A DNA stretch of 64,000 nt from the NCBI RefSeq assembly GCF_003334785.1, contig NZ_QOWV01000017.1. One strand, 5' to 3'. Positions 34,301-37,300 of this stretch are shown piece after piece. Origin of the DNA: Escherichia coli (GTDB lineage Bacteria > Pseudomonadota > Gammaproteobacteria > Enterobacterales > Enterobacteriaceae). The number at the start of each line of letters is the position of its first letter. Position 1 is the first letter of the stretch. Made by a program: the position numbers.

Positions 34301-37300
34301 CCAGTTGCTGAAAGTGTACCGGGCGCTGCTGACCGAAGGCGTTTCCCTGCGCGATATCGTCACCATCGCCACCGTGCTGGTCGCCAGTAGCACGGTGACG
34401 AAAGATCATATTCTGCTGGCGGCCGATGTGCGCCTGGCATTGCGGCGCAGCATTACCCATCCGTTCGTTCGCAAGCAGGAGCTGACGGTGTATACGCTGA
34501 ATAATGAGCTGGAAAATCTGCTGACCAACGTGGTGAATCAGGCGCAACAGGGCGGGAAAGTGATGCTCGACAGCGTGCCGGTCGATCCGAATATGCTCAA
34601 CCAGTTCCAGAGTACGATGCCACAGGTGAAAGAGCAGATGAAAGCGGCGGGGAAAGACCCGGTGCTGCTGGTGCCACCGCAGCTGCGCCCTTTGCTGGCG
34701 CGTTATGCAAGGTTGTTTGCGCCGGGGCTGCATGTGCTGTCGTATAACGAAGTGCCGGATGAGCTGGAGTTGAAGATTATGGGGGCGTTGATGTAAGTAT
34801 CCAGCATTGGTGCACAACTGCCGGATGCGGCGTGAACGCCTTATCCGTCCTACCGTTCAGGCACAAGTTTGTAGGCATGATAAGACGCGCCAGCGTCGCA
34901 TCAGGCATCTGCGCATAACTGCCGGATGCGGCATAAACGCCTTATCCGGCCTACCGATCCGGCACAAGTTTGTAGGCATGATAAGACGCGCTAGCGTCGC
35001 ATCAGGCATCTGCGCACAATTATGAAATGATACGCTCCCCGGCACTAAAATCCGTTACGTCCCCCGCCCAATCGATGGGATATAACCCTCGCGCGACATC
35101 GCGATGGAACGTTGAGAATGGCCAATCACTCACTTGCTTTACCCAACCATGCTTTACTGGATTTATATAAATATAATCAACATGATGCCTATAATCTTTG
35201 GTATTGCGGATGGCGTGCTCCCAAAAACGTGGTTGCCAGATATTTTTCAATCCACAAGCATGGGTAAATTGCTTTTTAATTTCCCGCCAGCGCGAGGAAA
35301 AATCATCATCGCCTTCAGGTAATGTCCAGATACAGTGCATATGCTCTGGCAAAACGACCCAGGCGTTGATTTCAAAAGGCCTGTCTCGCTTAACTTTAAT
35401 AATGGCGTGACGGAGCATCTGGTACTGGGTGGTCAAAAGTTGGCTTCGACGATTTCGTAAATTCACCGTGAAAAACCATGTTCCCCCCTTGATGTAATAA
35501 CGACGATATTCAGACATGGCGACTCCTTTTTCTCAACGGTAAGAAGAAAAGGAAAGGTTGGCAATGAGGTTGTTTTATATCGGGAAAGCGGCTCGCAAAT
35601 ATTCGCGGGCTCGTAGGCATGATAAGACGCGCCAGCGTCGCATCAGGCACCTGCGTACAACTGCCGGATGCGGCGTAAACGCCTTATCCGTCCTACAAAA
35701 TCGTCTCTTCCGTCAAAATCCTGCGCGCGCCCAAAAAATGGTCCTGCCAGAAAGGTTCGGCTAATCGGCTTATCCGAATGGTTTCGCCGGTACGTGGCGA
35801 CTCGATAAATTGCCCATCGCCCAAATACACGCCCATATGATCGGCTATCTCGCGGCTGTGGATATGGAAAAACAGCAAATCTCCCCGGCGCAGGTCGTTG
35901 TTCGCCACAATCGTTGCCCGGCGATAGTGGTACATCTCATTGGCCGTGCGCGGGAGCTTAGCCTCAAGGATCTTGTTGTAGGCATAAAAAACCAACCCGC
36001 TACAGTCAAAGCCTTTATCAGGCCGCGTACCGCCCCAGACGTAAGGCTTGCCAAGCTGCTGCTCCAGGCGGTGAATCGCCACTTCGGTAATGTTATGCAG
36101 ATGGTCGCTGCTTAAAAAGTGGTTGTTTTCCGCCAGCGCCTGCCAGCGTCTGTCACTCGCCTTGAGCGGAGCAGGAAACCATTCTGGATGCTGTTTTATC
36201 TGCTCCCGGTTGTGCTGGCGTAGCGCCCTTTTGCTTTCGGCATTGCCTTCCACAATATAGCTGGCCTGCTTTTTCAGATGAGTTTGGTACTGTTTTAATA
36301 AACGCGCACGGTTTTGCATCCGCTGGCGGGCGGCGTAGCTGAAAGAGATATGTGATGTGGTGGCGCTGGCAAATGAAGAAAACGGCAAACAAATCAACAG
36401 TAATCCCGACAATACAAAGGATGGAATCGACGGCAAGGACATACTCAATAATGGCTGGTCATGCTTTAATGTTGCAGTGTATCCCGGATCGTTTCTGAAC
36501 AAACTTAATAAACCATTATTATAAAATTAACATATATATTTCAGTTAATTATGTAAAAACATCCGTTTATTAAATTACTCATGGATTGTCGCTGTTGCTC
36601 ATTTGAGCTACAATTCAAGCTGAATAAATATACAGCACAGGAGATACCCCAATGGCTGCTAACGCGTTTGTTCGCGCCCGAATCGATGAAGATCTGAAGA
36701 ATCAGGCAGCGGACGTACTGGCCGGGATGGGGCTGACCATCTCTGACCTGGTTCGCATAACCCTCACAAAGGTCGCGCGTGAAAAGGCATTGCCGTTTGA
36801 TTTACGCGAGCCTAATCAATTAACCATTCAATCAATCAAAAACAGCGAAGCTGGCATTGATGTTCATAAGGCCAAAGACGCCGATGATTTATTTGATAAA
36901 TTAGGAATTTAAATATGATTCAAAGGGATATTGAATACTCGGGACAATATTCAAAGGATGTAAAACTTGCACAAAAGCGTCATAAGGATATGAATAAATT
37001 GAAATATCTTATGACGCTTCTTATCAATAATACTTTACCGCTTCCAGCTGTTTATAAAGACCACCCGCTGCAAGGTTCATGGAAAGGTTATCGCGATGCT
37101 CATGTCGAACCGGACTGGATCCTGATTTACAAACTTACCGATAAACTTTTACGATTTGAGAGAACTGGAACTCACGCGGCGCTCTTTGGGTAAAGCCCGC
37201 TTCCGATGAAATTTGTAAACCCTGCGCCGACAGGCTTGCGTAAAACTCTTTTGGTGATAATGTGAGCCTTCCAAATCCAGACTATTCCGATTTGGGATCC

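What the first reader, a model, noticed from the sequence alone, without database searches (positions are those of the whole stretch)
34820..35700. rayT (REP-associated tyrosine transposase) bracketed by REP arrays
A HuH-type TnpA_REP gene sits between a four-unit REP cluster on its 3' side and a REP pair on its 5' side. This is the architecture proposed to propagate REP sequences. A third cluster of the same REP family lies 3.4 kb away at 38893-39040, consistent with local REP mobilisation.
Basis: partly seen in the sequence, partly recalled or inferred. Interest (0 to 1): 0.35.

Follow-up and report, generated by a model that had tools for sequence, protein, structure and literature searches.

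The report
Known E. coli rayT REPtron

Summary
An intact 165-aa gene lies at 35020-35517 (- strand). Four REP units (y, z2, y, z2; 34820-35007) abut its 3' end, two (z2, y; 35613-35696) lie upstream, and a three-unit cluster sits at 38891-39025.

The window is an E. coli K-12-like chromosome. The protein is 100% identical over its full length to PDB 4ER8 (TnpA-REP/RayT). It scores 179 bits on NCBIfam REP_Tyr_transpos (cutoff 80). It keeps H59-M60-H61, Y115, N119, H123 and E161.

This locus is the "REPtron Ec" model of Ton-Hoang 2012, Messing 2012 and Corneloup 2021: one BIME on the 5' side and a strain-variable number on the 3' side. I reproduced that pattern: 1, 2, 4 or 6 units on the 3' side, always 2 on the 5' side. 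Strains without rayT keep the array or carry hicAB instead.

The "local mobilisation" reading of the third cluster is not supported:
- A 600-kb census of MG1655 found 102 REPs and no decline with distance from rayT.
- The third cluster is no closer in sequence to the REPtron than arrays 130-275 kb away.
- Two of its hairpins are decayed.
- It is conserved in about 5,084 of 5,426 genomes, against 3,575 that carry rayT.

Already known; low interest.

The parts
34820..34853 (-). y-type REP unit. It reads 5'-GTAGG...hairpin on the - strand and ...CCTAC on the + strand. Outermost unit of the 3'-side BIME-2 array.
   Evidence: cmsearch R1 55.8 bits, E = 5e-12; nhmmer E = 5e-12; ssDNA hairpin -9.0 kcal/mol, z = -2.4.
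34871..34906 (+). z2-type REP unit (5'-GTAGGCATGATAAG... on the + strand), 'CATGCC' variant.
   Evidence: R1 51 bits, E = 9e-11; hairpin -9.7 kcal/mol, z = -3.0. Together with the next y unit it matches Rfam RF02564 naRNA4 at 77 bits, above the gathering score of 59.5.
34921..34954 (-). y-type REP unit.
   Evidence: R1 55.1 bits; hairpin -11.0 kcal/mol, z = -3.2.
34972..35007 (+). z2-type REP unit, 12 nt from the rayT stop codon. With its following linker (34972-35019) it is a direct repeat of 35613-35660.
   Evidence: R1 52.1 bits; direct-repeat family D1 with 641-nt spacing; hairpin z = -3.0.
35020..35517 (-). rayT (yafM, tnpA-REP, b0228): a 165-aa HUH/Y1 REP-associated tyrosine transposase.
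   Evidence: 165/165 aa identical to PDB 4ER8 chain A. NCBIfam NF047646 179 bits, cutoff 80. Annotated rayT in MG1655 and 100% identical there. H59-M60-H61, Y115, N119, H123 and E161 are present. dN/dS is 0.08-0.17 among E. coli alleles.
35523..35528 (-). Shine-Dalgarno AAGGAG, 5 nt upstream of the rayT ATG.
   Evidence: Read directly from the sequence. No sigma-70 consensus promoter was found on the - strand between 35518 and 35612.
35613..35648 (+). z2-type REP unit of the single 5'-side BIME.
   Evidence: R1 51 bits; hairpin z = -2.2. With the next y unit it matches naRNA4 at 73.3 bits.
35663..35696 (-). y-type REP unit of the 5'-side BIME. It overlaps the last 4 nt (35693-35696) of the yafL ORF, which ends at 35693 on the - strand.
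   Evidence: R1 56.3 bits; hairpin z = -2.8. The same right-hand junction is kept in the rayT-less strains CFT073 and N12.
38891..39025 (.). A separate BIME-2 (y, z2, y) in the yafJ-gmhA intergenic region. Same REP classes as the REPtron, but not part of it.
   Evidence: R1 48.9, 52.1 and 55.3 bits. naRNA4 74.1 bits. Both y units have decayed stems. The region spanning it is conserved in 5,084 of 5,426 genomes.

Best explanation
This is the canonical E. coli 'REPtron'. It consists of the single-copy, chromosomally fixed, domesticated HUH/Y1 nuclease gene rayT (yafM/tnpA-REP), embedded in a BIME-2 array of alternating y and z2 REP hairpins.

Shown for this exact protein in the literature: monomeric RayT binds single-stranded REP hairpins through the 5' GTAG tetranucleotide and the 2-nt stem mismatch. 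It cleaves at CT dinucleotides 5' or 3' of the hairpin, forming a 5'-phosphotyrosine link through Y115 with metal held by H59/H61. It can also rejoin strands.

Inferred, not shown in vivo: acting in trans on ssDNA at replication forks or extruded hairpins, RayT excises, inserts and locally amplifies BIMEs. This would maintain the roughly 600-copy genome-wide REP population. The gene itself does not move.
For: Identity:
- The protein is 100% identical to 4ER8.
- NF047646 scores 179 bits against a cutoff of 80.
- The locus is 100% identical to, and syntenic with, MG1655 lfhA-rayT-yafL-dinJ-yafQ.

Catalytic set: it is intact and invariant in four divergent E. coli alleles, with dN/dS of 0.08-0.17.

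Flanking units:
- They are genuine y/z2 REPs with GTAG and mismatch-bearing hairpins.
- The same classes are dispersed genome-wide: 102 units in a 600-kb sample, including a unit at trpR-yjjX identical to y 34820-34853.

Copy number: rayT is single copy (median 1 place per genome, 3,575 of 5,426 genomes). It is essentially chromosomal; the seven 100%-identical plasmid hits are 214-242-kb plasmids of K-12/laboratory-culture E. coli, probably F-primes.

Strain pattern, as published in PMC3333891:
- The 5' side always has one BIME.
- The 3' side has 1 (GN03551), 2 (O157:H7), 4 (K-12) or 6 (NIPH17_0020) units.
- CFT073 and N12 lack rayT but keep an uninterrupted array joined to the same yafL flank.
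- B1-type strains carry hicAB and no REPs.

Biochemistry and structure: PMC3333891, PMC3479197, PMC8266576.
Against: - No in vivo REP/BIME transposition by E. coli RayT has been demonstrated. PMC3333891 and PMC8266576 say the mechanism and its frequency are unknown.
- REP numbers differ little between rayT+ and rayT- E. coli strains (PMC3333891).
- A mobilome study found no circular REP intermediates (bioRxiv 10.1101/2024.07.17.603846).
- Pfam Y1_Tnp matches only weakly (E = 0.082), so the link to IS200 transposases rests on structure and the literature rather than on that profile.
- No consensus promoter was found upstream of rayT.
- rayT is a pseudogene (W99*) in O157:H7 NE1127, so it is dispensable.
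Confidence: 0.93

Rival explanations
1. Local (cis-biased) mobilisation. RayT seeds new REP clusters preferentially near its own gene, and the yafJ-gmhA cluster 3.4 kb away is such a product.
For: - All nine REP units of the 64-kb window lie within 4.2 kb around rayT.
- The z2 units of the REPtron, the third cluster and the next locus (nlpE-yaeF, 31 kb away) share the '...ATCATGCCTAC' variant.
- In Marinomonas, REPs do cluster near their tnpA-REP (PMC8266576).
Against: - The CATGCC variant also occurs at prpE-codB (354 kb), yjjV-yjjW (three units) and trpR-yjjX. Overall 10 of 34 z2 units carry it.
- There is no distance decay. No units lie 5-25 kb from rayT, and the densest patches are 100-130 kb away.
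- Chance proximity is about 0.3.
- The third cluster's units are no closer to the REPtron (84-93%) than to arrays at 375 kb or 4614 kb (86-93%).
- Its two y hairpins are decayed.
- The region spanning it is conserved in 5,084 of 5,426 genomes against 3,575 with rayT, mostly at an identical 600-601-nt span.
- The literature states that E. coli REPs are distributed genome-wide (PMC8266576).
Confidence: 0.04
2. A relic association. The flanking BIMEs work today only as ordinary intergenic REP elements: 3'-UTR mRNA stabilisers or attenuators, gyrase/HU/Pol I binding sites, or naRNA4-like nucleoid RNAs. RayT no longer does anything to them; it may be kept for another host role such as nuclease defence or competence.
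For: - Three BIME units match Rfam naRNA4 (RF02564) above the gathering score.
- REPs are reported as transcribed and as 3'-UTR regulators (PMC4550694; bioRxiv 10.64898/2026.03.23.713779).
- The arrays sit at gene 3' ends (lfhA, rayT, yafL).
- REP counts are similar with or without rayT (PMC3333891).
- rayT has been lost or pseudogenised in about a third of genomes.
- yafM is reported to be induced with competence (cited in PMC5581495).
Against: - Strong purifying selection on rayT, with all DNA-cleavage residues invariant.
- The purified protein specifically binds and cleaves exactly these REPs (PMC3333891, PMC3479197).
- Array size varies between strains specifically next to rayT.
- The literature reports REPIN decline after RAYT loss (as summarised in bioRxiv 10.1101/2024.07.17.603846).
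- The REP housekeeping roles are compatible with, rather than alternative to, RayT-driven maintenance.
Confidence: 0.2
3. An autonomous IS200/IS605-type insertion sequence. The hairpin-gene-hairpin unit transposes as a whole.
For: The layout is like IS200/IS605: a Y1 HUH gene bordered by imperfect palindromes. There is a weak Pfam Y1_Tnp hit.
Against: - It is single copy and always sits at the same lfhA-yafL site in 3,575 genomes.
- The seven 100%-identical plasmid copies are on 214-242-kb plasmids of K-12/laboratory-culture E. coli, probably F-primes carrying chromosomal DNA.
- The two units next to the gene are direct repeats, not inverted ones.
- RayT is a monomer, unlike dimeric TnpA-IS608 (PMC3479197).
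Confidence: 0.01

Closest known systems
E. coli K-12 MG1655 REPtron 'Ec': rayT/yafM/tnpA-REP (b0228), PDB 4ER8, group 2 RAYT (Nunvar 2010; Ton-Hoang 2012; Messing 2012; Bertels 2017; Corneloup 2021)
   Same: It is the same thing. The protein is identical. The 1.1-kb locus is 100% identical to MG1655. The BIME layout is the same (one BIME 5', two BIMEs 3'), and so are the neighbours (lfhA pseudogene, yafL).
   Different: Nothing at the locus differs. The host strain is not MG1655 itself. Over the 16.9 kb compared there are 3 mismatches. The window has an extra 9.5-kb Rhs/ISAs1/T6SS-remnant segment. An offset in the position of tRNA thrW implies that the IS1 in crl and the CP4-6 prophage are absent.
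IS200/IS605 family Y1 transposases (TnpA of IS608, ISDra2)
   Same: HUH motif plus a single catalytic Tyr on helix alpha-D. ssDNA hairpin recognition. The gene is bordered by imperfect palindromes.
   Different: RayT is single-copy, immobile and monomeric, and has a C-terminal extension that supplies E161 to the metal site. It acts in trans on hundreds of dispersed hairpins. The Pfam Y1_Tnp match is only E = 0.082.
REPIN-RAYT systems of Pseudomonas (group 3 RAYTs; Bertels and Rainey 2011)
   Same: A single-copy, vertically inherited RAYT flanked by its cognate REP doublets, which are dispersed genome-wide.
   Different: A different RAYT group, often several REPtrons per genome, and short perfect palindromes rather than the 29-37-nt mismatched y/z1/z2 hairpins of E. 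coli.
REP325 / naRNA4 (Rfam RF02564)
   Same: The z2-linker-y units here match the naRNA4 model at 73-77 bits (gathering score 59.5). They are the same BIME-2 repeat type.
   Different: naRNA4 was defined at the REP325 locus. Transcription or HU-related function of the units here was not tested, and a 2026 preprint disputes the nucleoid role of REP325.

Membership tests
RAYT / TnpA-REP (group 2) | [quoted passage not shown] | tested here: met
   H59-M60-H61, Y115, N119, H123 and E161 are present. The protein is 165/165 identical to 4ER8. Residue roles come from PMC3479197. The residues are invariant in four E. coli alleles.
RAYT / TnpA-REP (group 2) | Sequence membership in the curated family profile | tested here: met
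   NCBIfam NF047646 REP_Tyr_transpos (equivalog): 179 bits against a cutoff of 80, E = 4.6e-53.
RAYT / TnpA-REP (group 2) | The gene is immediately flanked by REP/BIME units carrying 5'-GTAG and an imperfect hairpin | tested here: met
   Four units on the 3' side and two on the 5' side, each E <= 1e-10. The hairpins have a 2-nt mismatch and a GTAG foot, z = -2.2 to -3.2.
RAYT / TnpA-REP (group 2) | The flanking REPs belong to the family dispersed at high copy across the genome | tested here: met
   102 y/z1/z2 units in a 600-kb sample of MG1655. An identical y unit occurs at trpR-yjjX. The literature count is 584 per genome (PMC3333891).
RAYT / TnpA-REP (group 2) | Single copy, fixed chromosomal position, vertically inherited | tested here: met
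   Median 1 place per genome (maximum 2) in 3,575 of 5,426 genomes; 3,578 chromosomal places against 9 on plasmids. It always lies between lfhA and yafL. dS up to 0.37 between alleles with dN/dS about 0.1.
RAYT / TnpA-REP (group 2) | Binds ssREP and cleaves or rejoins at CT dinucleotides | not testable with these tools
   Shown in vitro for the identical protein (PMC3333891, PMC3479197, PMC8266576). CT dinucleotides are present in both linker types here (read).
RAYT / TnpA-REP (group 2) | Mobilises or amplifies REPs in vivo | not testable with these tools
   Not demonstrated in the literature either. The only indirect support is the strain-to-strain variation of the 3' array, 1/2/4/6 units.
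BIME-2 | Alternating y and z2 REPs in opposite orientation, short linkers, tandemly repeated | tested here: met
   y-17nt-z2-14nt-y-17nt-z2 with a 101-nt period (88% between the two repeats). The 5' pair is z2-14nt-y. The definition is from PMC3333891.
IS200/IS605 insertion sequence | Multicopy element that transposes as a unit, with a Pfam Y1_Tnp transposase | tested here: not met
   Single copy at one locus. Y1_Tnp reaches only E = 0.082. The units next to the gene are in direct, not inverted, orientation.
naRNA4 (Rfam RF02564) | Match to the covariance model above the gathering score; expressed as an HU-associated RNA | tested here: inconclusive
   The model is matched at 77, 73.3 and 74.1 bits against a gathering score of 59.5. 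Expression and function were not testable. The model essentially describes a generic BIME-2 unit.

The most novel reading that the evidence does not exclude
RayT activity may be cis-biased and directional. Only the array on the gene's 3' side changes size between strains (1, 2, 4 or 6 units), while the 5' BIME is always one pair. That would imply ongoing RayT-driven amplification or contraction of the adjacent array, for example coupled to rayT transcription exposing ssDNA. The locus would then be a natural in vivo reporter of RayT activity.
Probability: 0.12. Interest if true: 0.3.

Novelty: already known. Interest (0 to 1): 0.07.

Why it matters
It does not change anything. The locus is the published model system for REP-associated tyrosine transposases, and the window simply contains it.

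The one useful outcome is negative. In E. coli, a REP cluster lying near rayT should not be read as evidence of local mobilisation. REP/BIME loci occur about every 17 kb, denser patches exist far from rayT, and the neighbouring cluster is ancient and conserved species-wide.

The real open question is whether and how RayT moves REPs in vivo. This window neither advances that question nor makes it more testable.

Tried and rejected
- **Fuzzy-regex REP scan.** It timed out. I replaced it with nhmmer and a covariance model.
- **Loci fetched in parallel.** L003-L006 and others were not visible to Python. I worked around this by running cmsearch on session loci and reading the stored alignments.
- **Pfam.** Only a marginal Y1_Tnp hit (E = 0.082). 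I relied on NCBIfam and the PDB instead.
- **Published BIME tables.** The supplement of PMC3333891 is not held, so I built my own 600-kb census.
- **The z2 'CATGCC' variant.** In the first 300 kb it looked confined to the rayT neighbourhood. Doubling the sample showed it also at 354 kb, 4614 kb and 4633 kb, so I dropped it as evidence of locality.
- **Promoter and terminator scan of 34700-35800.** It gave nothing beyond shuffle expectation and no promoter upstream of rayT on the - strand.
- **Full-genome census.** The three distal samples (150 kb) held only 7 REPs, so variant frequencies far from rayT are poorly sampled.
- **Large protein-database searches.** Full identity to a crystallised protein made them unnecessary.
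Full report
**What is there**

The window between about 27 kb and 44 kb is the reverse complement of E. coli K-12 MG1655 239-256 kb, with 3 mismatches in 16.9 kb. The gene order is lafU' (pseudogene), lfhA' (pseudogene), rayT, yafL, dinJ-yafQ, dpaA, yafJ, gmhA, fadE.

At the finding's coordinates there is one ORF, 35020-35517 on the - strand (165 aa). An AAGGAG ribosome-binding site lies 5 nt upstream of its ATG.

I located REP units in two independent ways. The first was nhmmer profiles built from the local units. The second was a covariance model of the hairpin (model R1), run with filters off over the whole 64 kb. Both give exactly nine units and nothing else; the next best hit scores 12.8 bits, E = 0.37.
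- 3' side of the gene: y 34820-34853, z2 34871-34906, y 34921-34954, z2 34972-35007.
- 5' side: z2 35613-35648, y 35663-35696.
- yafJ-gmhA spacer: y 38891-38924, z2 38942-38977, y 38992-39025.

The 3' array is a 101-nt tandem period. It has 17-nt linkers where the GTAG ends face each other and 14-nt linkers where the other ends face each other. That is the BIME-2 organisation defined in PMC3333891.

Folded as ssDNA on the GTAG strand, seven units give the canonical stem, 2-nt mismatch, stem, tetraloop hairpin preceded by GTAG (z = -2.2 to -3.9). The two y units of the third cluster have mutated stems and do not fold this way.

**What it is**

- The protein is identical over all 165 residues to PDB 4ER8, "TnpArep".
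- It scores 179 bits against NCBIfam NF047646, REP-associated tyrosine transposase (cutoff 80).
- The 1.1-kb locus is 100% identical to MG1655 and many other strains, where it is annotated rayT.
- Pfam's IS200-type Y1_Tnp model matches only marginally (E = 0.082), which reflects how far RAYTs have diverged from IS200 transposases.
- According to the structure paper, the active site is Y115 with H59-M60-H61, N119, H123 and E161 (PMC3479197). All are present here.
- These residues are also invariant in three other E. coli alleles that differ by up to dS = 0.37, with dN/dS of 0.08-0.17.

In O157:H7 NE1127, however, the gene is a W99* pseudogene.

**Relation to the literature**

This very locus is the "REPtron Ec" model. 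Ton-Hoang et al. (PMC3333891) cloned the MG1655 REPtron. They showed that TnpA-REP binds single-stranded REPs, requiring GTAG and the stem mismatch, cleaves at CT dinucleotides, and recombines BIMEs in vitro. [quoted passage not shown]

I reproduced this with the covariance model on six strains.

| Strain | rayT | Units 3' of rayT | Units 5' of rayT |
|---|---|---|---|
| GN03551 | present | 1 | 2 |
| O157:H7 NE1127 | present (W99* pseudogene) | 2 | 2 |
| this window / K-12 | present | 4 | 2 |
| NIPH17_0020 | present | 6 | 2 |
| CFT073 | absent | uninterrupted array of 6 units | |
| N12 | absent | uninterrupted array of 4 units | |
| strain 2-1 (and O104:H4) | absent, hicAB in its place | no REPs | |

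In CFT073 and N12 the array is joined to the same yafL flank as in K-12.

In the window, the segment z2 plus linker at 34972-35019 is a direct repeat of 35613-35660, spaced 641 nt apart. Deleting one copy plus the gene leaves a continuous BIME array, matching the published "precise excision".

rayT is single copy (median 1 place per genome) in 3,575 of 5,426 complete E. coli genomes and is essentially chromosomal. The seven 100%-identical plasmid copies lie on 214-242-kb plasmids of K-12/laboratory-culture E. coli, probably F-primes carrying chromosomal DNA.

I fetched 600 kb of MG1655: 1-400 kb, centred roughly on rayT at 247.6 kb; the last 50 kb of the chromosome; and three distant 50-kb samples. 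I searched all of it with R1. This gave 102 units, or 1 per 5.9 kb. The published figure is 584 per genome, or 1 per 7.9 kb.

The REPtron units are ordinary y and z2 REPs. One y unit at trpR-yjjX is identical to 34820-34853. The condition "a different family from elsewhere in the genome" is therefore not met.

Density shows no decline with distance from rayT.
- Beyond the third cluster at 3.4 kb, the next loci are 29.5 and 31 kb away.
- The densest patches lie 100-130 kb from rayT: 349.6-361.9 kb with 17 units, and 374.9-377.5 kb with 13 units in 2.6 kb.
- With about one non-REPtron locus per 17 kb, a locus within +-3.5 kb is expected about 30% of the time.

A z2 variant (...ATCATGCCTAC) at first seemed confined to the rayT neighbourhood. 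The larger sample showed it also at 354 kb, 4614 kb and 4633 kb; 10 of 34 z2 units carry it.

Whole BIME units of the third cluster are 84-93% identical to REPtron units. They are 86-93% identical to the arrays at mhpE-mhpT and yjjV-yjjW. Only the REPtron's own 5' and 3' units are each other's nearest relatives.

The region spanning the third cluster is present in 5,084 of 5,426 genomes, mostly at an identical 600-601-nt span. That far exceeds the number of genomes with rayT.

Together with its decayed hairpins, this marks the third cluster as an old, stable BIME rather than a recent local copy. The literature likewise says E. coli REPs are distributed genome-wide, in contrast to Marinomonas (PMC8266576).

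**Mechanism: shown and inferred**

Shown, in the literature, for this exact protein: monomeric HUH nuclease; ssDNA REP recognition through GTAG and the stem irregularity; CT cleavage through Y115; strand transfer.

Shown here: an intact gene under purifying selection, the cognate REPs flanking it and dispersed across the genome, single-copy fixed position, and strain-variable array size on the 3' side.

Inferred: that RayT excises, inserts and amplifies BIMEs in trans in vivo. This remains undemonstrated (PMC3333891 discussion). A mobilome study saw REP-region signals but no circles.

The REPs may also serve ordinary roles. The z2-y units match Rfam naRNA4 above the gathering score, and REPs are reported as 3'-UTR regulators. 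These roles are compatible with the main explanation rather than competing with it.

**Verdict**

The core interpretation is correct. The "local mobilisation" gloss is unsupported. The feature is already known in full detail, including a crystal structure, so interest is low.

Noticed in passing
window 44057-53587: A 9.5-kb segment that MG1655 lacks, at the position of its yafU/yafF pseudogene scar. It holds an ISAs1-family transposase (43776-44912, -), a small ORF (45343-45735, -), an RHS core protein (45713-49792, -; NF041261 2474 bits), and then T6SS remnants (VasL and IcmF C-terminal domains, per RefSeq annotation of identical strains). At least 80% of the 10-kb stretch 43800-53800 that spans it is present in only 159 of 5,426 E. 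coli genomes.
   Followed up: partly
window 45026-45146 (- strand): A full-length Rfam match to RF01999 group-II-D1D4-2 (81.8 bits, gathering score 36), lying between the Rhs tip/immunity ORF and the ISAs1 transposase. There is no reverse-transcriptase ORF and no other Rfam hit, including other group II intron domains, within 43500-46500 at E <= 0.1. The RhsB/H-repeat (yhhI) region of MG1655 has no such hit. Unexplained.
   Followed up: partly
window 34874-34951, 35616-35693, 38945-39022 (- strand): The z2-linker-y BIME units match Rfam RF02564 naRNA4 (nucleoid-associated ncRNA from REP325) at 73-77 bits, above the gathering score of 59.5. The Rfam model in effect recognises generic BIME-2 units.
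   Followed up: partly
window 32327-34796: Remnants of the Flag-2 lateral flagellar cluster. The ORF covering the lafU (mbhA) pseudogene and the N-terminally truncated lfhA (579-aa ORF) overlap head to head at 33057-33217. Both are pseudogenes in MG1655. Strain GN03551 has an intact flhA-like gene next to rayT.
   Followed up: no
L015 741-1238 (E. coli O157:H7 NE1127): rayT carries an internal stop (W99*, TGG to TAG) and is annotated as a pseudogene, while its flanking BIMEs (2 + 2 units) are kept.
   Followed up: yes
L017 701-1328 (strain 2-1) and other B1-type strains: The whole REPtron (rayT plus all flanking REPs) is replaced by a hicA-hicB toxin-antitoxin pair between lfhA and yafL. The neighbourhood also holds dinJ-yafQ (window 36652-37193), and in MG1655 yafN-yafO next to dinB. 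The region is therefore rich in toxin-antitoxin systems.
   Followed up: partly
window 1-27000: Compared with MG1655, the strain appears to lack the IS1 insertion in crl and the CP4-6 prophage at thrW (tRNA at 20987-21059). Both are inferred from the offset of thrW relative to MG1655 coordinates. Positions 1-21000 run straight into pao/ecp/fdeC and are 100% identical to strains JKHS016 and VE-F10. The window is thus a K-12-like commensal (probably phylogroup A), not the laboratory strain.
   Followed up: partly
window 14428-14627 (- strand): Rfam RF02111 'IS009' ncRNA candidate, a full-length match at 202 bits.
   Followed up: no
MG1655 339.7-340.1 kb, 349.6-350.0 kb, 374.9-375.4 kb (L006, L009): Very large BIME arrays of 8-9 units each, including one annotated as a protein gene 'yahH'. 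They cluster within about 40 kb and lie 90-130 kb from rayT. This is the densest REP patch in the 600-kb sample.
   Followed up: no
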